64,000 nucleotides of DNA from a virus. Its lineage: Duplodnaviria > Caudoviricetes. The DNA lies in IMG/VR virus record IMGVR_UViG_3300037484_000235, positions 64,001 through 128,000 of that record. The stretch is one strand, 5' to 3'. Position numbers and translations under genes: made by a program. The notes under the pieces are model-generated. The model did no database searches. It worked only from the letters and a program-made list of their open reading frames with translations, and was not told the origin of the DNA. Positions 38,336-46,231 of this stretch are shown in pieces (the first letter of the stretch is position 1; every line of letters begins with the position of its first letter).

Positions 38336-38420
38336 GGATCAGACGTAGCACTGGGAGCTACACCGGCCTGTAACACCGGCGCCTTCGGGCAAGTAGGTTC
38401 GATTCCTACCTGATCCACCA
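38336..38420 (+). tRNA. tRNA-Tyr(GTA)
   Basis: loop CT-GTA-AC, long V arm, T loop, CCA. Confidence 0.9.
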
Positions 38421-38506
38421 ACCACTACAACCCACGTTCCCTACAGAAATACGAGGCATCGATGATCAGCGACATTCCAAAAACCAGCGGTTCCGTGTTT
38501 CTATAC

Positions 38507-38581
38507 GGGATCGTAGCTCAGCGGTAGAGCAGACGGCTTTTAACCGTACGGTCGAGGGTTCAATCCCCTCCGATCCCACCA
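38507..38581 (+). tRNA. tRNA-Lys(TTT)
   Basis: loop CT-TTT-AA, CCA. Confidence 0.92.
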
Positions 38582-38604
38582 GGAGATGTCAGGTTCACGT
38601 TCAT

Positions 38605-38680
38605 GCTGCGGTAGCTCAGCTGGAAGAGCATTCGGCCCTTACCCGAAACGTCATGGGTTCGACCCCCATCCGCAGCACCA
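38605..38680 (+). tRNA. tRNA-Lys(CTT), C33 variant
   Basis: loop CC-CTT-AC, CCA. Confidence 0.8.
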
Positions 38681-38706
38681 AGCTCTAGTTCGGTTCGTGT
38701 TTCGAT

Positions 38707-38777
38707 TCGGGAATCGTCCAATGGCAGGACAGCGGCCTCTGACGCCGTGAATAGGAGTTCGACTCTCTTTTCCCGAA
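38707..38777 (+). tRNA. tRNA-Gln(CTG)
   Basis: loop CT-CTG-AC; no encoded CCA. Confidence 0.85.
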
Positions 38778-38904
38778 CTGCTGACTGGGTCTCTGACAAC
38801 TGAATAGGATTCCTTCAGGCGGTCCACCGAGGCCGCAGGATCAGGACTCGTCCGAGCGTTCAAGCCATCTTCATGGCGCGCTCGGACGAGGGCCTGTCCA
38901 CTTT

Positions 38905-38980
38905 TCCAGGGTAGCTCAGTGGAAGTAGCGTCCGGCTGTTAACCGGATGGTCGCAGGTTCGATCCCTGCCCCTGGAGCCA
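38905..38980 (+). tRNA. tRNA-Asn(GTT)
   Basis: loop CT-GTT-AA, CCA. Confidence 0.92.
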
Positions 38981-39047
38981 AGACGAATGCTCGGTCGGGA
39001 GTACATCAATCTTCGATACCCCCTCTCGGCCACTAAAATTGTCGTCT
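38981..39047 (+). ncRNA. minimal Y-RNA-like hairpin
   Basis: outer stem AGACGA/TCGTCT; GACGAATG; inner stem GGTCGGGAG/CTCTCGGCC; UACAU loop. Confidence 0.6.
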
Positions 39048-39053
39048 GTCTTT

Positions 39054-39125
39054 AGGTCGGATGCCGTGGCGGCAAACGAGATTCCAACACTCGTGGACAG
39101 GGTTCGATTCCTTGCCGACCTGCCG
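39054..39125 (+). tRNA. atypical tRNA-Trp(CCA), short D arm
   Basis: A1-U72, G73, loop centred on CCA, canonical T arm, ends GCCG. Confidence 0.6.
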
Positions 39126-39170
39126 CGTGGTGACCGAAAGGGACTCTTACCGGGGTCTCGGCTTTGGTTG

Positions 39171-39235
39171 CTCGTAGGGCGAATGCCGCTGAGAACTACA
39201 TTCTCCAAATCAGAAGGGCTTGCCGGAAGGCTGGC
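39171..39235 (+). ncRNA. minimal Y-RNA-like element
   Basis: GGCGAATG at 39178-85; CTGA/TCAG helix; ACTACAT loop. Confidence 0.45.
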
Positions 39236-39286
39236 TCGGGTCGTCGCAAGACGGCCACTGTTTTCAGCACTCTTGTCGCTCGAAAT

Positions 39287-39360
39287 GCCTCATGATGCGC
39301 TTGGAGCGCAGCCTCTCTGTCTAAGAGGTGAAGCCGGTTCGATTCCGACATGGGGCGCCA
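39287..39360 (+). tRNA. atypical tRNA-Asp(GTC), U37
   Basis: loop CT-GTC-TA, G73, CCA, odd D arm. Confidence 0.7.
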
Positions 39361-39516
39361 AGATTTCGTCGGACGCCAATCCGATTGGGCCTTAGACCAC
39401 GACCCTTGGCGGGGTGAAACAGCACGCAGGGCTCACTGCCCTGTTGTCCGAGATGGTCGCTCGGTGGTTGGGTGTAACAGCCCGCGCCATGATGTAAAGG
39501 GCCCGAGATCTTGACT

Positions 39517-39592
39517 GCCATCCAAGCTAATCTGGTGAAAGCGCCGGTCTGAAGAATCGGAGAGCCTGGATCAAAACCAGGGGATGGCACCA
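39517..39592 (+). tRNA. tRNA-Phe(GAA), variant T loop ATCAAAA
   Basis: loop CT-GAA-GA, ACCA. Confidence 0.8.
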
Positions 39593-39593
39593 T

Positions 39594-39679
39594 GCGTTGG
39601 TCGTCTAAATGCCGTAAAGACGCTAGGCACTGATCCGGATCGGTGCCTGGAAATGCAGTCTCGCAAACTGCACGACGCA
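39594..39679 (+). ncRNA. anticodon-less cloverleaf RNA
   Basis: acceptor, D arm, 12-bp arm with CCGG loop, T-like arm with 9-nt loop. Confidence 0.5.
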
Positions 39680-39685
39680 GAAAAT

Positions 39686-39760
39686 GTCCTGTTCGGCTAA
39701 CGGAAGGCCCTCTGACCCTCAATCAGATGACGGTGGGTTCAACTCCCCCATGGGACGCCA
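39686..39760 (+). tRNA. tRNA-Glu(CTC), C33 variant
   Basis: loop CC-CTC-AA, GCCA. Confidence 0.85.
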
Positions 39761-39762
39761 AT

Positions 39763-39837
39763 GCACTCGTAGCTCAGTGGAAGAGCTTCCGGCTTCGAAC
39801 CGGATGGCCGGGGGTTCAAATCCCTCCGGGTGCGCCA
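39763..39837 (+). tRNA. tRNA-Arg(TCG)
   Basis: loop CT-TCG-AA, CCA. Confidence 0.9.
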
Positions 39838-39849
39838 GTAGTGATCGAT

Positions 39850-39922
39850 GTCTTTGTAGCTCAGTGGATAGAGCAGGCGTTTCCTAAACGCAAGATCGGA
39901 GGTTCGATCCCTCCCAAAGACG
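39850..39922 (+). tRNA. tRNA-Arg(CCT)
   Basis: loop TT-CCT-AA; ends GCTA. Confidence 0.9.
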
Positions 39923-39925
39923 CTA

Positions 39926-40057
39926 GGGCAGATGCGGTGAGGACTACATAACAGGAACTCGGGGTCGCTGGTTCAAGTCCAGCCTGCCATCCTGGATGGC
40001 AGTAGCTCAGTCTGGTAGAGCACGAGTAAAAACCAATCTTCGCTAACCTTGCTGCCC
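39926..40057 (+). ncRNA. yrlA: YrlA-type Y RNA (circularly permuted class I tRNA module)
   Basis: order AC-3' strand, V loop GGGTC, T arm, loop-closed acceptor, D arm, AC-5' strand; outer GGGCAG/CTGCCC. Confidence 0.85.
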
Positions 40058-40066
40058 GAACTTTAT

Positions 40067-40142
40067 GGTGGCTGTAGCACAACGGTAGTGCGCCCGGCTG
40101 TGAACCGGGTTACGGAGGGTTCAACTCCCCCCAGTCACCCCA
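40067..40142 (+). tRNA. tRNA-His(GTG) with G-1
   Basis: loop CT-GTG-AA, C73, CCA. Confidence 0.92.
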
Positions 40143-40149
40143 GATGTAT

Positions 40150-40224
40150 TGGCTCGTAGCTCAACGGGAGAGCACCCGGCTGATAACCGGGAGGTCGTGG
40201 GTTCGACTCCCACTGGGCCAACCA
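40150..40224 (+). tRNA. tRNA-Ile(GAT)
   Basis: loop CT-GAT-AA, CCA. Confidence 0.92.
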
Positions 40225-40233
40225 GTTCGTTTG

Positions 40234-40306
40234 TGCGATGCGGCGGGGACGCCGTCCAGGCCTCATAAGCCAGGAATGCCAGGTTCAACTCCTGGGATCG
40301 CAACCA
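40234..40306 (+). tRNA. atypical tRNA(CAT), Met or Ile2
   Basis: loop CT-CAT-AA, short D loop, ACCA. Confidence 0.65.
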
Positions 40307-40312
40307 AGTGAT

Positions 40313-40387
40313 TGCCCTGTAGCTCAACGGAAGAGCGCTGTCTCGACAAGGCAGAGGCCGTGGGTTCAACTCCCACTAGGGCAACCA
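40313..40387 (+). tRNA. tRNA-Val(GAC), C33 variant
   Basis: loop TC-GAC-AA, ACCA. Confidence 0.85.
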
Positions 40388-40391
40388 ACGA

Positions 40392-40462
40392 TGTTCTGTC
40401 TAGTTGGAAGGGGGCCCTAATCGCGAGGGGCCGCGCAGGTTCAAGTCCTGCCAGAGCAGCCA
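40392..40462 (+). ncRNA. tRNA-like RNA without a valid anticodon loop
   Basis: acceptor TGTTCTG/CAGAGCA, canonical T arm, GCCA; D arm degenerate, loop AATCGCG. Confidence 0.55.
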
Positions 40463-40528
40463 AGCTCGCCTACCATGTGTGGGTGGAGTAACGGGGTCGT
40501 GTCCTCACGGGGACGGCCCCAGCTTTAT

Positions 40529-40603
40529 CGCGGGATGGAGAAGTGGTATCTCGTCGGGCTCATAACCCGGAGAACGCCGGTTCAAATCCGGCTCCCGCAA
40601 CCA
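40529..40603 (+). tRNA. initiator tRNA-fMet(CAT)
   Basis: C1:A72 mismatch, three G-C pairs in the anticodon stem, CCA. Confidence 0.92.
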
Positions 40604-40606
40604 AAT

Positions 40607-40683
40607 GGGGTCGTAGCTCAGTTGGGAGAAGCGCCTGCATCGCAAGCAGGAGGTCGTGAGTTCAAATCTCACCGATTCCACCA
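40607..40683 (+). tRNA. tRNA-Ala(CGC)
   Basis: G3-U70, loop AT-CGC-AA, ACCA. Confidence 0.9.
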
Positions 40684-40740
40684 TGTTTTAATAGTGGTTG
40701 ACTTACCATACTGAATGGTTCAACCTTCACCGTATCCACC

Positions 40741-41322
40741 ATGCTAGACACAGATCACCCTGAGGAAATTGTTTCCTCATCTTGGGATGGCCGTCCTCGA
40801 AGACTTGTTGCCAATCTTTGTGGTCATTGTCATGGCAGGTTCTTTGCCCCGAGACACACAACTGCAAAGTTCTGTTCTAAGACATGCTCCGACGAGTCAC
40901 AGAAGAACAAGACCGTTCTTGTTTGTGCCCAATGTAAAAGGTCTTTTGAGCGTGTTCCCAGTACCTTGAAGAACTCCCGGAGTGGGGTGAGATTCTGTCA
41001 GAGATCCTGTAAGGATGAGGCTCAAAGACTTGAGGGTCTCAAGGCCATACACCCTTCTCACTACGGGAGTGACATCACCCACAAGAAAGCTCTGATTAGG
41101 GATAGGGGACACAAGTGCGAGGTGTGTGGTTTCTCTCGGTGGCAAGGCAAGCCAATATCTCTGCACGTCGATCATGTCGACGGAAACCCTTATGACCACT
41201 CCCTAAGCAACCTTCGATTGATCTGTCCAAACTGTCATACCCAGACGCCAACTTATGGCGGCAGGAATAGAGGAAGGGGGAGAAAGTCGCGAAAGCTTCC
41301 GGATTGGAGTGACGTGAGGTGA
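40741..41322 (+). CDS. HNH endonuclease with N-terminal treble-clef Zn motifs
   Basis: CEVCG..W.G..ISLHVDHVDG...D....NLRLICPNCH.QT.TY. Confidence 0.9.
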   Translation: MLDTDHPEEIVSSSWDGRPRRLVANLCGHCHGRFFAPRHTTAKFCSKTCSDESQKNKTVLVCAQCKRSFERVPSTLKNSRSGVRFCQRSCKDEAQRLEGLKAIHPSHYGSDITHKKALIRDRGHKCEVCGFSRWQGKPISLHVDHVDGNPYDHSLSNLRLICPNCHTQTPTYGGRNRGRGRKSRKLPDWSDVR

Positions 41323-41334
41323 TGGGGTGTTTTT

Positions 41335-41407
41335 CGGGGTGTAGCTCAAATGGGAGAGCTTTGGCGAACAGCCAAAGATCAGGGTTCGAATCCCTGCTAC
41401 CCGGCCA
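41335..41407 (+). ncRNA. tRNA-like RNA with 5-nt anticodon loop (GAACA)
   Basis: canonical D and T arms, GCCA end, two acceptor mismatches. Confidence 0.6.
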
Positions 41408-41541
41408 GTGTTGTGGAAATACTCGATGGGGATTACATTACCTGCTAAGTAATCGATCTGGGTTCGACTCCCAGGCGCTCCCGTAAGGGGGCGAGCCAGG
41501 GGCTAGAAAAACATCTCTGTCATCACTTGTTTCACAGCACT
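41407..41541 (+). ncRNA. permuted tRNA-mimic Y-like RNA retaining a GCU anticodon arm
   Basis: 12-bp outer stem; GATTACAT; AC arm, T arm, GTAA-closed acceptor, D-like hairpin. Confidence 0.7.
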
Positions 41542-41551
41542 ACTTCTTTTC

Positions 41552-41692
41552 GTGGTGAATACCGCAGTGACTACATGGAAAACGGTTGCCGAAAGGCGTG
41601 TGGGCTTCGATACCCACCTCAGCCTCGCAAGGGCTGAGTGGCGGAATGGCAGACGCGACTGCAAATGTCACTGTGACCCCTCTTGTCACCAC
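41552..41692 (+). ncRNA. permuted tRNA-Leu-like (class II) Y-like RNA
   Basis: V arm GCCGAAAGGC, T arm, closed acceptor, Leu D arm; outer stems of 9 and 7 bp; GACTACAT. Confidence 0.8.
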
Positions 41693-41833
41693 ACTAACTT
41701 CGCATGGGCCCTACGGGGTCCATGTGCAGACGGGTCTCGTAGGTCGCGCCAGGCCCTACGAGCTGGAAGATAGGGGACGCCACCCGCGAAAGCGATCAGC
41801 GGCCCCGAGTCCTGTCCGTGTTCCTGGTATTCT

Positions 41834-41906
41834 GGGGCTGTAGCTCAGTTGGGAGAGCGTCTCCATGGCATGGAGAAGGTCAAGGGTTCGATTCCCTTCA
41901 GCTCCA
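41834..41906 (+). tRNA. tRNA-Ala(GGC)
   Basis: loop AT-GGC-AT; ends ACCG. Confidence 0.9.
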
Positions 41907-41907
41907 C

Positions 41908-42053
41908 CGTAAGGGTAGTTCAAGTTGCGGTCGCGTACCGCACGGGGACGTAGGACAACCACAAGTCTGTGCACAGGTCGGTGGGAAGATCACGCGACGT
42001 GAGAGCTGCCTTCCAATAGAAGGTGAACGCAGGCGGAAACCCTGCCCCTTACG
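41908..42053 (+). ncRNA. expanded tRNA-like RNA
   Basis: 8-bp closing stem CGTAAGGG/CCCTTACG; T-like arm GCAGG-CGGAAAC-CCTGC. Confidence 0.4.
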
Positions 42054-42067
42054 ACAATTTCAAACAT

Positions 42068-42143
42068 GGGGACGTAGCTCAGCTGGGAGAGCGCGGGCTT
42101 TGCAAGCCTGAGGTCGCAGGTTCAATCCCTGTCGTCTCCACCA
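42068..42143 (+). tRNA. tRNA-Ala(TGC)
   Basis: loop TT-TGC-AA, ACCA. Confidence 0.92.
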
Positions 42144-42144
42144 A

Positions 42145-42240
42145 GGTGTAGGATTGCTAATCGGTAGGCAGGGAGGCTACAGGCTGACGAGCCTGGTACG
42201 GCCACCCGTATTGCAGGTTCAACTCCTGCCCAGCACCCCG
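42145..42240 (+). ncRNA. tRNA-like RNA with elongated anticodon arm capped by GACG
   Basis: 8-bp acceptor with one mismatch, D arm, canonical T arm. Confidence 0.55.
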
Positions 42241-42243
42241 TGT

Positions 42244-42318
42244 GCCCTCGTAGCTCAGTGGGAGAGCACCACATTGGTAATGTGGGGGTCGCCGGTTCAA
42301 TCCCGGCCGAGGGCTCCA
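42244..42318 (+). tRNA. tRNA-Thr(GGT)
   Basis: loop TT-GGT-AA, TCCA. Confidence 0.92.
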
Positions 42319-42328
42319 AGTTCGTTTT

Positions 42329-42399
42329 GCGGGCATGGTCAAGTGGCTTGGCCCTAGGCTTCCAACCTAGAGACGCGAGTTCGATTCTCGCTGCCCGCT
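42329..42399 (+). tRNA. tRNA-Gly(TCC)
   Basis: loop CT-TCC-AA, U73, no CCA. Confidence 0.88.
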
Positions 42400-42406
42400 C
42401 AAATGT

Positions 42407-42509
42407 TCGTTCCGTTCGGAGGTGGTTTGATCAGGCCAAGTGACGCAAGACTAGCTCCGGGGCTATGATCTCGGTGCGTTACCGATTGAGCTACCTCCGA
42501 ACGGAACGA
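42407..42509 (+). ncRNA. long-hairpin RNA with 26-bp closing stem
   Basis: 42407-42432 pairs fully (with G-U) to 42484-42509; inner helices. Confidence 0.6.
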
Positions 42510-42514
42510 CGAGT

Positions 42515-42589
42515 GCGGGTGTGGCGCAGTGGTAGCGCATCAGCTTCCCATGCTGAATGTCGCGGGTTCGACTCCCGCCACCCGCTCCA
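42515..42589 (+). tRNA. tRNA-Gly(CCC)
   Basis: loop TT-CCC-AT, TCCA. Confidence 0.92.
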
Positions 42590-42643
42590 GGTTGAATGCC
42601 ACGTCGGGAGTACATCCCTATACGATAAACCCTCTCGACAACC
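42590..42643 (+). ncRNA. minimal Y-RNA-like hairpin (paralog of 38981-39047)
   Basis: GTTGAATGC..GTCGGGAGTACATC..CGATA..CTCTCGAC. Confidence 0.6.
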
Positions 42644-42680
42644 GTGCAGACTAGTGCTGCACACCTTGTCAACCTTTCAC

Positions 42681-42755
42681 GACGCGGTCCTTCTGGCGGA
42701 AGGCAGCAGATTGCAACCCTGCTTGAGGTGAGTTCGATTCTCACCCGCGTCTCCA
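42681..42755 (+). tRNA. tRNA-Cys(GCA)
   Basis: loop TT-GCA-AC, U73, CCA. Confidence 0.88.
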
Positions 42756-42760
42756 CCAAT

Positions 42761-42837
42761 GCGGCAATAGCTTAGTGGGAGAGCTACCCTGTCCTGAATA
42801 GGCGAGGGTGACATGGGTTCGATCCCCGTTTGCTGCA
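42761..42837 (+). ncRNA. tRNA-Phe(GAA)-like with 8-bp bulged anticodon stem
   Basis: canonical acceptor, D and T arms; arm ACCCTGTC-CTGAATA-GGCGAGGGT. Confidence 0.55.
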
Positions 42838-43246
42838 TCGGTTTCAACTATGGGGGCAGGGAGACCTGCTACCCTAGACACCGCCCTTAACTGGGCCAGC
42901 CTAGTTAGCAACTAGGTGGTGGTGTATGCTGGACGGTTGTGGGAGTACTAGTCCAGGGGAGAGCATGAACCCAACGAAGAGGATCGGGTAGACTCTGGTC
43001 CGCACAAGTTTGTATGGCGTGCGTCTCGGGGAACACCCAGGCAGATGCCTCCTGGCACGGTGATACACACCCTAGACGTGCCATCTAACGCCGTTCCCCT
43101 TCGGGGGTTCATGGAACCGAGTCCGTCTTCGGGCGGCTTGGGTGCGAGCGGATTCGCATAGGAAAAGATTCGAAGCGCCGCTGCTGTCGAAGACACAGGT
43201 CGGGGTGTCGACCGAGCCCTGACACGTAGCTAAAGAGTCGGTCTAT

Positions 43247-43321
43247 GCACTCGTAGTTCAGGGGAAGAACTCCCGTCTTCTAAGCGGGTTGTCGGGGGTT
43301 CGAATCCTCCCGGGTGCGCCA
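43247..43321 (+). tRNA. tRNA-Arg(TCT)
   Basis: loop CT-TCT-AA, CCA. Confidence 0.92.
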
Positions 43322-43331
43322 CAAGGTCAAT

Positions 43332-43407
43332 GTCCGTATAGTGAAACTGGATATCACGCATCTCTACGAAAGATGTATTGCAGGTTCGAATCCTGCTATG
43401 GGCGCCA
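43332..43407 (+). tRNA. tRNA-Arg(ACG)
   Basis: loop CT-ACG-AA, CCA. Confidence 0.9.
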
Positions 43408-43409
43408 AT

Positions 43410-43485
43410 GTCTCTGTAGTGAAACGGATCATCACGCGGGCCTCCGAAGCCCTTATTGCTGGTTCGAATCCAGCCAGAGACGCCA
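43410..43485 (+). tRNA. tRNA-Arg(CCG)
   Basis: loop CT-CCG-AA, CCA. Confidence 0.9.
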
Positions 43486-43493
43486 AGTACAAT

Positions 43494-43568
43494 CCCTCCG
43501 TCCAGCGGGTCTGGGGACGCGCTTCATAAGCGTGCTTGCGAGCGGTTCGAGTCCGCCCGGTGGGACCA
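43494..43568 (+). tRNA. atypical tRNA(CAT)
   Basis: loop TT-CAT-AA, ACCA, irregular D arm. Confidence 0.65.
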
Positions 43569-43903
43569 TTCTCTGTGCAGAGCCGCTGACGACACGTCAG
43601 CATGGCGCAGTACAAGTCTGCATAGACGGGTGTGGAACTCGGACTGGTCGGATGCTGGTGAGAAGACCAGCTAAGCGCAGAGGATGAACACGTTTGAGTG
43701 CGTCTTGACTGATTCAAGTTCAAGACAGCCTGCCAGCAATCAGTTGCTGACTGTCAACCTGCCGATCTCATACAAGGGACACCTAGTGTCGGCCTTCAGA
43801 TGCGTCGCTTTGCGGCTCCTCTGACTGGAAGCGTACTAGGGCGGTCACACAGTGACCGGGTGAGTGTTGTCTCAATCTATCCTAGATCATTCTCGGGATC
43901 TTT

Positions 43904-43978
43904 CGGGGTGTAGCGCAGTGGTAGCGCGTCTGTTTCGGGAACAGAAAGTCGTCGGTTCGATCCCGGCCACCCCGACCA
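43904..43978 (+). tRNA. tRNA-Pro(CGG)
   Basis: loop TT-CGG-GA, ACCA. Confidence 0.92.
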
Positions 43979-44077
43979 CAACATCGTCAGCCACTTCAGC
44001 GCCCCTCGGGGAAGTCTGTTGCGTGTTGATGATGGGTCACCCCCTGGGCGCGTCCGGGCTAGGGTGACTGTGTTTCT

Positions 44078-44152
44078 CTGGGTGTAGCGAAGTGGTATCG
44101 CGCTCGGTTTGGGGCCGAGAAATCGCTGGTTCGATCCCAGCCACTCAGACCA
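44078..44152 (+). tRNA. tRNA-Pro(TGG)
   Basis: loop TT-TGG-GG, ACCA. Confidence 0.9.
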
Positions 44153-44179
44153 CAACATCGCTCTCACCTCGGTTTGGGC

Positions 44180-44249
44180 GGTGGGCTTCACCTCTGTGTC
44201 GGCCGCACGGGGTGGGCTTCACCTCTGTGTCGGCCGCACGGGGTGGGCT
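44180..44249. repeat. 31-bp tandem repeat (2 copies plus 8 nt)
   Basis: GGTGGGCTTCACCTCTGTGTCGGCCGCACGG x2. Confidence 0.9.
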
Positions 44250-44259
44250 GTGATTTTCT

Positions 44260-44334
44260 CGGGGCGTGGCGAAGTGGTATCGCGCTCGGCTGGGGGTCGA
44301 GAGATCGCAGGTTCGATCCCTGTCGCCCCGACCA
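44260..44334 (+). tRNA. tRNA-Pro(GGG)
   Basis: loop CT-GGG-GG, ACCA. Confidence 0.9.
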
Positions 44335-44585
44335 CTCTGGTTCGATTGGATCCTCGACCAGAGCCCAACCCTGTCAGGAGTCTGCCGTTAGGAGACGGCA
44401 CAGAACAAGCCGGGACATAGTGTACGGCAACACAATCCGGCAAGTCCGGATAAAAGCGATTCAATTCCGCGCGTCTCGGGGAAGTCTGAGGTGTGTGCTA
44501 CACACCTGACGGGGAAGGGAACTTTTTGCTGGTGAATCATGTAATCTCCCGGGGGTCATCCGTTACACTGGTGAAGGAAGCAACC

Positions 44586-44747
44586 ATGAAGCCCTACGAC
44601 ATCGACCGAAAGCGCCACGAGACTTGCCGCTACGGGTGCTGCACGAACCCTCAGGGCAGCAAGAAGCACCTCGCGACACGTCGCCGTCAGAAGCGGTCTT
44701 CCAGGGCGCATGGGCGCCAGGAGATCCGGGAGACCACGGCGTCATGA
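44586..44747 (+). CDS. small Arg-rich protein (CRYGCC)
   Basis: ATG after AAGGAAG; strong codon bias. Confidence 0.6.
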   Translation: MKPYDIDRKRHETCRYGCCTNPQGSKKHLATRRRQKRSSRAHGRQEIRETTAS

Positions 44748-45073
44748 ACAACGACCGACCCACGACACTTGCAGAGTGGCTCGTTTCCGAAGAGAAGGCG
44801 CCTGACCAAAGTAAGCTGGCTGCGTGGCTCGTCTCTGACGAGGACGAGACGCCTGACCAAAGCAAGCACGCGTTCCACATGGGGTGGGTCCGGGCAGGTT
44901 GCTTGAAGAAGCATGGCATCACAGCAGCCACCCGGCGCCAGGCCCGTAAGGCTGCGGCCCGGTGCGAGGCAACGGACTTCATGGCCGGATGGTACGTCCG
45001 GCAGCTCGCTGACTTCCTGGGATGCTGGGGACCAATCTCCCAACTCGATGTACGGGGCGTGAACCGCTCCTGA
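44744..45073 (+). CDS. hypothetical protein with duplicated LA.WLVS.E...PDQSK unit
   Basis: ATGA overlap. Confidence 0.6.
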   Translation: MNNDRPTTLAEWLVSEEKAPDQSKLAAWLVSDEDETPDQSKHAFHMGWVRAGCLKKHGITAATRRQARKAAARCEATDFMAGWYVRQLADFLGCWGPISQLDVRGVNRS

Positions 45074-45102
45074 ACCGCTCCTGACGTGTTCGGATGTTCC
45101 AT

Positions 45103-45326
45103 ACCTCTGTAGCGCAACGGAAGCGCGTCGGAAAAACGAAGCCGATATCGTAAAAGACGCCGTACCACCTGCTACCCTGAATCCAAATGGGATAGGGGGT
45201 GTGGGGAACCCCCAAAGGTTGCAGAAGCACCGAATGGCTTGGAGACAGGTCACTAGGGAAGCGCGGTTTCCTAAGAAGGGGGTTTGGGTGTGGATGAAGT
45301 GGGTTCGACTCCCACCAGGGGTGCTA
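45103..45326 (+). ncRNA. about 220-nt expanded tRNA-like RNA
   Basis: acceptor ACCTCTG/CAGGGGT, canonical D arm and T arm, about 170-nt insert. Confidence 0.6.
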
Positions 45327-45330
45327 AAAA

Positions 45331-45406
45331 CCGCTCTTAGTTCAATCGGACTCAGAACCCCCGTCTCATAAACGGGTATGTCTCGGTTCGAATCCGGGAG
45401 AGCGGA
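45331..45406 (+). tRNA. tRNA(CAT), Met or Ile2
   Basis: loop CT-CAT-AA; no CCA. Confidence 0.85.
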
Positions 45407-45419
45407 CAAATAGGGTGCT

Positions 45420-45614
45420 GTGATGATCGACTTCAATGCAGAGTACAGGCATCGACGGAAGGGTTTCCGTGTGATCGTAGGGGAGCCCGCTTGGTGGGAC
45501 ACCATGGAAGCTAACCGGGTTGTGGTCTACAAGTTGGGGGCCATGTCTGGACCTCTGCACTGGGTGATGAAACGATCGTCGTTCGAGCGGTTGTACGAAG
45601 TCATGCGCGCGTAA
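45420..45614 (+). CDS. DUF1653-like small protein
   Basis: YRH.RKG.RV; VVVYK; WV.KRSSF. Confidence 0.6.
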   Translation: MMIDFNAEYRHRRKGFRVIVGEPAWWDTMEANRVVVYKLGAMSGPLHWVMKRSSFERLYEVMRA

Positions 45615-45679
45615 CTCAGTGGAAGAGTGTCTCCTTTACACGGAGAATGTCGGGGGTTCGATCCCCTCCGCGCGTACCA
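45605..45679 (+). tRNA. tRNA-Val(TAC)
   Basis: loop TT-TAC-AC, ACCA. Confidence 0.92.
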
Positions 45680-45764
45680 AAAGACCACCCTTTGGTGGCA
45701 AAGTACCGGACGGGAGGTAGGTCTCCGGGGAATACCTCGGGGACTCCTTCCGATCTTGGAACAT

Positions 45765-45849
45765 GTGAGAGTGGTGGAATGGCAGTCACGCTGGGCTAAG
45801 GACCCAGTGCCCCCAACGGGGCGTGCGGGTTCGACTCCCGCCTTTCACA
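45765..45849 (+). tRNA. tRNA-Leu(AAG)
   Basis: stem CTGGG/CCCAG, loop CT-AAG-GA, long V arm, A73. Confidence 0.88.
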
Positions 45850-45867
45850 CAAAGTGCAGTGCAACAT

Positions 45868-45955
45868 GCTGGGGTGGCGAAATGGCAGACGCACCAGGTT
45901 CAGAACCTGGCGGGGTTTAAACCTCATGGGGGTTCAAGTCCCCCCCTCAGCACCA
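45868..45955 (+). tRNA. tRNA-Leu(CAG)
   Basis: loop TT-CAG-AA, V arm, ACCA. Confidence 0.92.
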
Positions 45956-45967
45956 AAGAGTACACAT

Positions 45968-46052
45968 GCAAGATTGGCGAAACTGGCAGACGCTACGGGC
46001 TGAGAGTCCGTCGGGTAATACCGTGAGGGTTCGACTCCCTCATCTTGCACCA
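45968..46052 (+). tRNA. tRNA-Leu(GAG)
   Basis: loop CT-GAG-AG, V arm, ACCA. Confidence 0.92.
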
Positions 46053-46059
46053 GTAGTGA

Positions 46060-46135
46060 GGGAGCGTAGCCCAACGGCAGAGGCAGTGCATTTAGGGTGC
46101 ACTCAGTGTGGGTTCGAATCCCACCGTTCCTACCA
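46060..46135 (+). tRNA. tRNA-Leu(TAG), short variable loop
   Basis: loop TT-TAG-GG, 5-nt V loop, ACCA. Confidence 0.88.
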
Positions 46136-46138
46136 AAT

Positions 46139-46223
46139 GCCCCGGTGGCGAAACGGCAAACGCGGTGGATTTAAAATCCGCTGCCGAAAGGTGTTGCGGG
46201 TTCGACTCCCGCTCGGGGCACCA
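46139..46223 (+). tRNA. tRNA-Leu(TAA)
   Basis: loop TT-TAA-AA, V arm, ACCA. Confidence 0.92.
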
Positions 46224-46231
46224 AGATGTAT

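What the first reader, a model, noticed from the sequence alone, without database searches (positions are those of the whole stretch)
38981..39047. Duplicated minimal Y-like hairpins directly 3' of tRNA CCA ends (also 42590-42643)
Both read GAATGC-N3-GTCGGGAG-TACATC-N6-CGATA-N4-5-CTCTCG. Their outer stems differ in sequence but both pair (AGACGA/TCGTCT and GGTTG/CAACC), which looks like compensatory change. Each starts immediately after an encoded CCA (tRNA-Asn, tRNA-Gly). They have the Ro-type stem and UACAU loop but no tRNA module, so they may be gate-only Y RNAs released by tRNA 3' processing.
Basis: partly seen in the sequence, partly recalled or inferred. Interest (0 to 1): 0.72.

Follow-up and report, generated by a model that had tools for sequence, protein, structure and literature searches.

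The report
Short Y RNAs in phage tRNA array
Two small hairpin RNAs wedged between tRNA genes of a huge uncultured phage are stripped-down Y RNAs, probable partners of the phage's own Ro60 protein; they extend a known RNA family and are not a new kind of element.

Summary
The 23-nt core GAATGC-N3-GTCGGGAGTACATC occurs exactly twice in the window (0 expected), each time flush against the CCA of a tRNA. Copy 2 does not end at 42643. It runs to 42674, closed by GGUUGA/UCAACC, and carries an extra side hairpin.

Both copies belong to a Y RNA-like family:
- The window encodes a Ro60 homolog on the same strand, inside a 46-tRNA array.
- Four longer RNAs in the array share the same stem. One of them scores 59 bits against Rfam YrlA.
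- Copy 1 aligns end to end with Rfam YrlB, though at a low score.
- Related Ro60-encoding phage contigs carry short hairpins in the same two tRNA slots (Asn-Trp and Gly-Cys).
- Across 16 short RNAs, 96% of stem cells pair and 11 of 14 pairs change on both sides. Shifted controls pair at 36-60%.

Y-like RNAs of every size sit 0-4 nt after one tRNA and 3-16 nt before the next. Release by tRNA-processing enzymes is therefore a reasonable inference. The CCA contact is not special, because 37 of 46 tRNAs here encode CCA.

Ro60 binding, expression and a "gate-only" role were not tested. Hairpin-type Y RNAs are already known (Salmonella and M. smegmatis YrlB, D. radiodurans Yrn2, Thermus phage phiLo Yrl2). 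An earlier follow-up in this scan had already reported six Y RNAs in this array.

The parts
38905..38980 (+). tRNA-Asn(GTT) with encoded CCA. Its last base abuts short Y RNA 1.
   Evidence: ARAGORN; Rfam tRNA 60.7 bits
38981..39047 (+). Short Y RNA 1 (67 nt, YrlB-like). Outer stem 38981-86/39042-47. GNCGAANG motif 38982-89. Inner stem 38993-39001/39023-31. UAC 39002-04. Apical stem 39005-07/39015-17 with a 7-nt loop. 3' internal loop ending in UUG, 39032-41.
   Evidence: Motif; fold; Rfam YrlB 22.5 bits, full length; model R1 64.1 bits; orthologs L004:4241-4308, L007:1137-1200, L008:2694-2757
39054..39124 (+). tRNA-Trp(CCA anticodon), starting 6 nt after short Y RNA 1
   Evidence: ARAGORN
42515..42589 (+). 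tRNA-Gly(CCC) with encoded CCA. Its last base abuts short Y RNA 2.
   Evidence: ARAGORN; Rfam tRNA 71.8 bits
42590..42674 (+). Short Y RNA 2 (85 nt; corrected 3' end). Outer stem 42590-95/42669-74. GUUGAAUG motif 42591-98. Inner stem 42603-10/42632-39. UAC 42611-13. Apical stem 42614-16/42624-26. CUUG at 42665-68.
   Evidence: Fold -25.1 kcal/mol, z -3.0; R1 60.7 bits, full length; orthologs L004:6363-6428, L005:5666-5729, L006:6156-6222 in the same Gly(ccc)-Cys slot
42644..42662 (+). Side hairpin (GUGCAG...CUGCAC) inserted in the 3' internal loop of short Y RNA 2. The orthologs lack it.
   Evidence: Fold; comparison with the orthologs
42681..42755 (+). tRNA-Cys(GCA), starting 6 nt after short Y RNA 2
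   Evidence: ARAGORN
39177..39281 (+). 105-nt Y-like RNA with the same stem (GGGCGAAUGC...CUUGUCGCUC) and a three-hairpin head that is not tRNA-like. It ends 5 nt before tRNA-Asp.
   Evidence: Stem scan; R1 36.4 bits; fold
39926..40057 (+). YrlA-type Y RNA with a tRNA-like module, lying between tRNA-Arg(cct) and tRNA-His
   Evidence: Rfam RF02553 59 bits, E 1.8e-11, below the gathering score of 69
41410..41538 (+). Y-like RNA with a T-arm-like hairpin and GAAAUAC in place of GAAUGC, starting 2 nt after tRNA-Val(aac)
   Evidence: R1 14.3 bits, a weak match; sequence; fold
41552..41693 (+). Y-like RNA (GUGGUGAAUAC...CUCUUGUCACCAC) with a T-arm-like hairpin
49692..51359 (+). Ro60/Rsr homolog (555 aa), the presumed protein partner
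   Evidence: Pfam vWA_Ro60 7.7e-18 and TROVE 2.1e-7; PDB 2NVO (D. radiodurans Rsr) 1e-20 and 9KOP/9L5Y (phage phiLo Ro60) 6.9e-19

Best explanation
The two elements are hairpin-type Y RNAs. They are the phage counterpart of Salmonella and M. smegmatis YrlB and of D. radiodurans Yrn2. They keep the Y RNA stem and have no tRNA-like or other effector module.

Each RNA has three tiers. A 6-bp closing stem contains the GNCGAAN0-1G motif. An asymmetric internal loop follows, with AAUGC on the 5' side and a 3' side ending in (C)UUG. Above it lies an 8-9 bp helix with a conserved GGGA(G/C)/(C/G)UCUC core and a conserved G-U pair. The helix is topped by UAC, a 3-5 bp apical stem and a small loop.

Proposed mechanism, all inferred. 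The RNAs are transcribed as part of the polycistronic tRNA array. RNase P cutting at the next tRNA, 6 nt downstream, defines the 3' end. The endonuclease that makes the upstream tRNA's 3' end defines the 5' end. Because there is no spacer, one cut serves both molecules. The phage Ro60 encoded 7-10.7 kb downstream then binds the conserved stem. With no effector-binding head, the RNAs would occupy or regulate Ro60, acting as a gate or as a competitor of the four module-bearing Y RNAs. Alternatively they could offer only a small apical hairpin to another partner.
For: Shown here:
- The shared 23-nt core occurs twice against 0 expected.
- A Ro60 homolog lies on the same strand within the array.
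- Copy 1 aligns over the whole Rfam YrlB model with every helix matched. The array's YrlA-type RNA and three other RNAs carry the same stem.
- Orthologous short hairpins occupy the same tRNA-Asn/Trp and tRNA-Gly(ccc)/Cys slots in contigs whose Ro60 is 71-83% identical.
- On 16 short RNAs, 96.4% of stem cells pair, against 36-60% when the partners are slid, and 11 of 14 pairs change on both sides. RNAalifold finds the same two helices on its own. On 43 family members the figure is 96.2%, with 12 of 14 pairs changing on both sides. The apical stem also covaries in the Gly-Cys slot: AUC/GAU, ACC/GGU, AUC/GGU.
- Four of seven contigs found by RNA motif alone encode Ro60.
- 27 of 49 Y-like RNAs start within 4 nt of a tRNA end, and 24 are also within 16 nt of the next tRNA. 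Every hit in the Ro60-oriented loci lies on the Ro60 strand.

From the literature:
[quoted passage not shown] 2014 (PMC4201824).
- A phage Ro60 binds a one-hairpin Y-like RNA in vitro (PMC12135203).
Against:
- Ro60 binding is untested.
- The Rfam YrlB score is far below the gathering score (22.5 against 97), and copy 2 gets no Rfam hit at all.
- Copy 2 has UGAA where the motif has CGAA, with a compensating A in the 3' arm.
- The distance to Ro60 (7-10.7 kb) exceeds the 4 kb within which Chen et al. found nearly all their best matches.
- The outer-stem pairing was a selection criterion for the sequences found by my regex scan. Only the inner helix and the orthologs found by synteny are unbiased.
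- An encoded CCA is an anti-determinant for RNase Z in some bacteria (my own knowledge), so the enzyme that would cut at the junction is unclear.
- One complete phage contig carries such a hairpin and no Ro60.
Confidence: 0.7

Rival explanations
1. They are structured spacers, or decayed Y RNAs. On this view they descend from Y RNAs and now serve only as punctuation in the array, for example by blocking exonucleases or positioning the processing cuts, without any working link to Ro60.
For: They sit flush between tRNAs just as tRNAs sit next to each other. They lack an effector module. Other spacers in the array also fold strongly without Y features. One complete phage contig carries a similar hairpin and no Ro60.
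Against: The invariant bases (GAAU.C, G..UACA, GU) and the conserved G-U pair lie in loops and at fixed helix positions. That pattern is typical of a protein-binding site and not of a generic hairpin. The same core is kept in the module-bearing Y RNAs of the same arrays. Both slots are conserved across phages whose Ro60 has diverged to 71% identity.
Confidence: 0.13
2. They are Ro60 landing pads that act in cis. The hairpin stays attached to the 3' end of pre-tRNA-Asn or pre-tRNA-Gly, so that Ro60 is recruited to those precursors for quality control or timed maturation, and no free small RNA is released.
For: There is no spacer between the CCA and the stem in this phage. Ro60 is known to handle misfolded RNA precursors (literature background cited in PMC12135203). 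The phage encodes its own CCA-type nucleotidyltransferase.
Against: The upstream partner varies across the family: Asn, Gly, Ala, Pro, Trp, Phe, Arg, Leu and Ile tRNAs all occur, and some family members have no tRNA nearby. Module-bearing Y RNAs show the same flush placement, so the spacing reflects array packing and not a link to particular tRNAs. In L004 the Gly-Cys ortholog lies 9 nt from the tRNA.
Confidence: 0.08
3. They are self-cleaving ribozymes that release the upstream tRNA's 3' end, in the manner of the HDV-like ribozymes found after tRNAs in some phages.
For: Only the position directly 3' of a tRNA.
Against: No ribozyme family matches either site even at E up to 10. The fold is a simple nested hairpin with no pseudoknot requirement. 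The conserved bases are those of the Y RNA stem.
Confidence: 0.02
4. They are intrinsic terminators or attenuators within the array.
For: They are stable hairpins on the transcribed strand.
Against: No U tract follows either hairpin. The terminator scan finds none at these sites, and its count over the region is at the chance level (5 found, 4.8 expected). tRNA genes continue 6 nt downstream.
Confidence: 0.01

Closest known systems
YrlB of Salmonella Typhimurium (Rfam RF02565; Chen et al. 2013 and 2014)
   Same: It is an Rsr-bound Y RNA of about 80 nt with no tRNA-like domain. [quoted passage not shown] Copy 1 aligns to the full model helix by helix.
   Different: The score is only 22.5 bits against a gathering score of 97. 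YrlB lies in the rsr-yrlBA-rtcBA operon next to rsr, not in a tRNA array. Chen et al. found YrlB homologs only in Salmonella serovars. The phage RNAs are flush with tRNAs, and Ro60 lies 7-10.7 kb away.
M. smegmatis YrlB and D. radiodurans Yrn2, the hairpin-type second Y RNAs (PMC4201824)
   Same: [quoted passage not shown] M. smegmatis YrlA and YrlB are cut from one precursor.
   Different: I did not compare sequences with these RNAs here. They are bacterial, they are not embedded in tRNA arrays, and each genome has only one or two.
Yrl1 and Yrl2 of Thermus phage phiLo (PMC12135203)
   Same: They are phage-encoded hairpin Y-like RNAs with the CGAA motif, lie upstream of the phage's Ro60 gene, and were shown by gel shift to bind it. 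That Ro60 (9KOP) is among the closest solved relatives of the window's protein.
   Different: The paper identified them from the CGAA motif and predicted folds. The sections I read describe no tRNA-array context, no covariation and no multi-member family. I did not compare sequences.
YrlA (Rfam RF02553), tRNA-like Y RNAs reported in 254 bacteria and 22 phages
   Same: It has the same closing stem, AUGC loop, inner helix and CUAC junction. One YrlA-type RNA sits in the same array at 39926-40057.
   Different: YrlA carries a tRNA-like module with T, D and acceptor-like arms. The two hairpins have only a 3-bp apical stem in its place.

Membership tests
Bacterial/phage Y RNA (Ro60-associated ncRNA) | Encoded near a Ro60/Rsr ortholog and on the same strand | tested here: met
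   Ro60 lies at 49692-51359 on the + strand. The hairpins lie 10.7 and 7.1 kb upstream, on the same strand and in the same tRNA array. This is farther than the 4 kb within which Chen et al. found most of their matches.
Bacterial/phage Y RNA (Ro60-associated ncRNA) | The 5' and 3' ends pair into a stem that carries the GNCGAAN0-1G motif near the 5' end | tested here: met
   Copy 1 has GACGAAUG at 38982-89. Copy 2 has GUUGAAUG, where C is replaced by U and the paired base changes to compensate. Stem covariation is shown.
Bacterial/phage Y RNA (Ro60-associated ncRNA) | Physically bound by Ro60 | not testable with these tools
   This needs a gel-shift or co-immunoprecipitation experiment. There is indirect support only: four of seven contigs found by RNA motif alone encode Ro60.
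Bacterial/phage Y RNA (Ro60-associated ncRNA) | Accumulates as a discrete small RNA | not tested
YrlB (Rfam RF02565) | Score at or above Rfam's gathering threshold (97 bits) | tested here: not met
   Copy 1 scores 22.5 bits over the full length. Copy 2 has no hit. Chen et al. found YrlB homologs only in Salmonella serovars, so the model is probably narrow.
YrlB (Rfam RF02565) | Architecture: closing stem, AUGC internal loop, long helix, UA bulge, 4-bp apical stem with a small loop, and no tRNA-like domain | tested here: met
   The alignment matches every helix. The folds of 24 short family members show the same three tiers.
YrlA (Rfam RF02553) | A tRNA-like module (T arm, D arm and acceptor-like stem) inside the Y stem | tested here: not met
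   Only 21 nt lie between the two inner-helix strands. They form a 3-bp stem with a 7-nt loop. There is no YrlA or tRNA hit at either site.
Self-cleaving ribozymes (HDV-like, hammerhead, twister, hatchet, pistol and others in Rfam) | Match to a ribozyme covariance model or its conserved catalytic core | tested here: not met
   No ribozyme family appears at either site at E up to 10.

The most novel reading that the evidence does not exclude
Huge phages of this group treat the Y RNA stem as a cassette that fits into a tRNA slot. Several Y RNAs per genome (six here, seven in L004) would be excised by the host's tRNA-processing enzymes. They would range from bare hairpins to several kinds of tRNA mimic and would form a switchable panel. 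The bare hairpins would be the 'off' or gate state, competing with the module-bearing tethers for the phage's or the host's Ro60. In this way the phage would tune RNA decay or tRNA surveillance during infection.
Probability: 0.2. Interest if true: 0.7.

Novelty: new member of a known kind. Interest (0 to 1): 0.42.

Why it matters
Hairpin-type Y RNAs had eluded sequence searches. Chen et al. found YrlB homologs only in Salmonella serovars. This phage family supplies dozens of covarying examples. They define a conserved core that is larger than the GNCGAA motif: the AAUGC loop, the GGGA(G/C)-UACA junction, a fixed G-U pair and the (C)UUG loop. The core gives a ready covariance model and concrete mutants for studying how Ro60 recognises its RNA.

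The flush packing between tRNAs also makes a specific, testable prediction about biogenesis: one endonucleolytic cut makes both the tRNA 3' end and the Y RNA 5' end. The biology of Ro60 in phages is almost unexplored, and Myxococcus phage Mx1 offers a cultured relative in which to test these ideas.

Tried and rejected
- An exact-core scan of IMG/VR found nothing outside this genome. Megablast of the array against GenBank phages found only a 64-nt tRNA match.
- A broad pattern, CGAATGC-N8-13-ACTACAT, returned 80 loci. The covariance model accepted hits in only four of them, so most were chance matches.
- Several of the 21 loci from the first degenerate pattern were one conserved coding sequence and not RNA genes.
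- Copy 2 has no Rfam hit.
- Model R1 found nothing convincing around the Ro genes of mycobacteriophage Alice or Streptomyces phage Daubenski. The model is specific to this phage group.
- A recent duplication is rejected. The two copies are 69% identical over aligned columns, no closer to each other than to orthologs in other phages.
- Terminator and promoter readings are rejected.
- No RtcB gene is present in the 252 kb held.
- Two reviews (PMC10870794 and PMC6047535) are not in the library, and the supplements of Chen 2014 are not held.

Full report
**Context.** The window is bases 64001-128000 of a 252.5 kb IMG/VR virus record that CheckV estimates to be 57% complete. Between 38336 and 52928 the + strand carries 46 tRNA genes. 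The same stretch holds a weak tmRNA-like match, three HNH endonuclease ORFs and a 555-aa Ro60/Rsr homolog at 49692-51359. The Ro60 homolog matches Pfam vWA_Ro60 (7.7e-18) and TROVE (2.1e-7). Its closest solved relatives are D. radiodurans Rsr (2NVO, 1e-20) and the Ro60 of Thermus phage phiLo (9KOP/9L5Y, 6.9e-19). The closest named phage by Ro60 is Myxococcus phage Mx1, at 45% identity.

**The observation.** The core GAATGC-N3-GTCGGGAGTACATC occurs exactly twice, at 38985 and 42594, with none in 100 shuffles. It occurs nowhere else in the record. Each element begins at the base after an encoded CCA, of tRNA-Asn and of tRNA-Gly(ccc).

- A second UCAACC at 42669-74, preceded by CUUG, pairs with GGUUGA. 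This gives an 85-nt RNA (-25.1 kcal/mol, z -3.0) with a side hairpin at 42644-62.
- The long form matches the family model end to end. It ends 6 nt before tRNA-Cys, just as copy 1 ends 6 nt before tRNA-Trp.
- The CCA contact is not special. 37 of 46 tRNAs encode CCA, and tRNAs in the array are often only 2-17 nt apart.

**What they are.** Rfam places a YrlA-type Y RNA at 39926-40057 (59 bits, E 1.8e-11, gathering score 69). Copy 1 aligns to the whole YrlB model (RF02565) with every helix matched, although at only 22.5 bits. Copy 2 has no Rfam hit.

I scanned for six bases followed by ATGC, with TTG plus the complement of those six bases downstream. Requiring TACAT soon after the ATGC as well picked out four elements in the whole record, all inside this array: 38981, 39177, 39926 and 42590. 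Two more, with GAAUAC in place of GAAUGC, lie at 41410-41538 and 41552-41693. The second came from a lead in an earlier scan note. The array therefore holds six RNAs with one common stem. Four carry larger heads and two are bare hairpins.

**Comparative evidence.** Fifteen virus contigs encode Ro60 relatives. In those with 71-83% identical Ro60 the order of tRNAs is conserved, and short hairpins occupy the same two slots.

| Slot | Orthologous short hairpins |
|---|---|
| tRNA-Asn to tRNA-Trp | L004:4241-4308, L007:1137-1200, L008:2694-2757 |
| tRNA-Gly(ccc) to tRNA-Cys | L004:6363-6428, L005:5666-5729, L006:6156-6222 |

The Gly-Cys orthologs lack the side hairpin and their tRNAs do not encode CCA.

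- An alignment of 16 short RNAs has invariant GAAU.C, G..UACA and GU.
- With the two-helix structure, 96.4% of cells pair, against 36-60% when partners are slid. Eleven of 14 pairs change on both sides, and no shuffle out of 500 reaches the observed values.
- RNAalifold predicts the same helices on its own.
- A covariance model built from the alignment finds 43 family members in 21 loci. On these, 96.2% of cells pair and 12 of 14 pairs covary. One G-U pair is kept in 36 of 43.
- Single-sequence folds of 24 short members give the same three tiers.
- The apical stem covaries within the Gly-Cys slot: AUC/GAU, ACC/GGU and AUC/GGU.

One caveat applies. Outer-stem pairing was a search criterion for the sequences found by regex. 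The inner helix and the orthologs found by synteny are free of that bias.

The two window copies are 69% identical over aligned columns. That is no closer than each is to orthologs elsewhere, so they are old paralogs and not a recent duplication.

**Link to Ro60.** Every model hit in the Ro60-oriented loci lies on the Ro60 strand. Of seven contigs found by RNA pattern alone, four encode a Ro60 homolog. Two of the others are fragments. One complete 54.8 kb genome has a 56-nt hairpin and no TROVE protein.

**Packing and biogenesis (inference).** Of 49 Y-like RNAs, 27 start within 4 nt of an upstream tRNA end and 29 end within 16 nt of the next tRNA. For 24, both hold. This applies to long and short forms alike, so Y RNAs occupy tRNA slots.

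The simplest mechanism is transcription with the array followed by excision by tRNA-processing enzymes. RNase P at the downstream tRNA would leave a 6-nt trailer. The 3'-end endonuclease of the upstream tRNA would make the 5' end. With no spacer, a single cut must serve both RNAs.

RNase Z is inhibited by CCA in some bacteria and cuts after CCA in others (my own knowledge), so the responsible enzyme is open. The phage encodes a CCA-type nucleotidyltransferase, which could restore the CCA if the cut falls after the discriminator base. Chen et al. showed that M. smegmatis YrlA and YrlB come from one precursor and that RNase P cleaves YrlA. Processing of Y RNAs by tRNA enzymes therefore has precedent.

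**Function (inference).** Conservation is concentrated in the internal loops and at fixed helix positions shared by all six RNAs. That pattern fits a common protein-binding platform, most likely for Ro60. The hairpins lack the head that tethers PNPase in YrlA and Yrn1. They would therefore occupy Ro60 without tethering it, or would present only a small apical hairpin.

**Rivals.** No ribozyme family matches either site. No terminator features are present. A role as mere spacers, or as decayed Y RNAs, is disfavoured by the conserved loop bases and by slot conservation. A role in cis on unprocessed pre-tRNAs is disfavoured because the upstream tRNA partner varies widely.

**What is known.**

- Chen et al. 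2014 described the GNCGAAN0-1G motif, YrlA in 254 bacteria and 22 phages, and hairpin-type second Y RNAs: Salmonella YrlB, M. smegmatis YrlB and D. radiodurans Yrn2. They found YrlB homologs only in Salmonella serovars.
- A 2025 study showed that phage phiLo Ro60 binds two Y-like RNAs, one of them a single hairpin.
- An earlier follow-up in this scan reported six Y RNAs in this same array. My independent count agrees.

The two elements are therefore new members of a known kind. What is new:

- A covarying family of YrlB-like hairpins in phages.
- Their conserved slots in the tRNA array.
- The shared-cut geometry with the upstream tRNA.

**Limits.** Expression, RNA ends and Ro60 binding were not tested.

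Noticed in passing
window 42401-42514: The spacer between tRNA-Gly(tcc) and tRNA-Gly(ccc) forms a near-perfect long hairpin of about 26 bp (-59.7 kcal/mol, z -7.9). By eye, its interior read on the minus strand resembles a tRNA D-arm and anticodon segment.
   Followed up: partly
window 38779-38904: The spacer before tRNA-Asn folds strongly (z -4.3) and includes a 13-bp GC-rich hairpin. It has no Y RNA features.
   Followed up: partly
L039:8608-8709 (Myxococcus phage Mx1, OR576727.2, about 45522-45623): A 102-nt Y-like RNA (33.6 bits) lies flush between tRNA-Ile and tRNA-Asp in a cultured phage that encodes Ro60. GenBank annotates a 'hypothetical protein' CDS (WNM70101.1) over it.
   Followed up: partly
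L075:1237-1292 (-): A 56-nt Y-like hairpin (41.9 bits) lies in a complete 54.8 kb phage contig that has no TROVE/Ro60 hit. It may use a host Ro60.
   Followed up: partly
L007:703-1200 and L008:2259-2757: An HNH endonuclease ORF sits between tRNA-Asn and a duplicated tRNA 3' half. The short Y RNA follows that 3' half by 2 nt. This looks like a homing-endonuclease insertion at a tRNA gene.
   Followed up: no
window 38336-52928 compared with L004, L005, L007: 37 of 46 tRNAs in this phage encode CCA. The tRNAs upstream of Y RNAs in the close relatives L004, L005 and L007 do not. The phage also encodes a PolyA_pol/CCA-type nucleotidyltransferase at G000:45866-46342.
   Followed up: partly
L006:8033-8109; L009:1424-1497; L011:8539-8612: Related contigs carry suppressor-type tRNAs, with anticodons tta and cta. 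This hints at stop-codon recoding in some relatives.
   Followed up: no
window 47260-47343, 48992-49076, 49200-49300: Weak tRNA-Sec-like (33-34 bits) and tmRNA-like (26.8 bits) Rfam matches that ARAGORN did not call. They may be unusual long-arm tRNAs and a divergent tmRNA.
   Followed up: no
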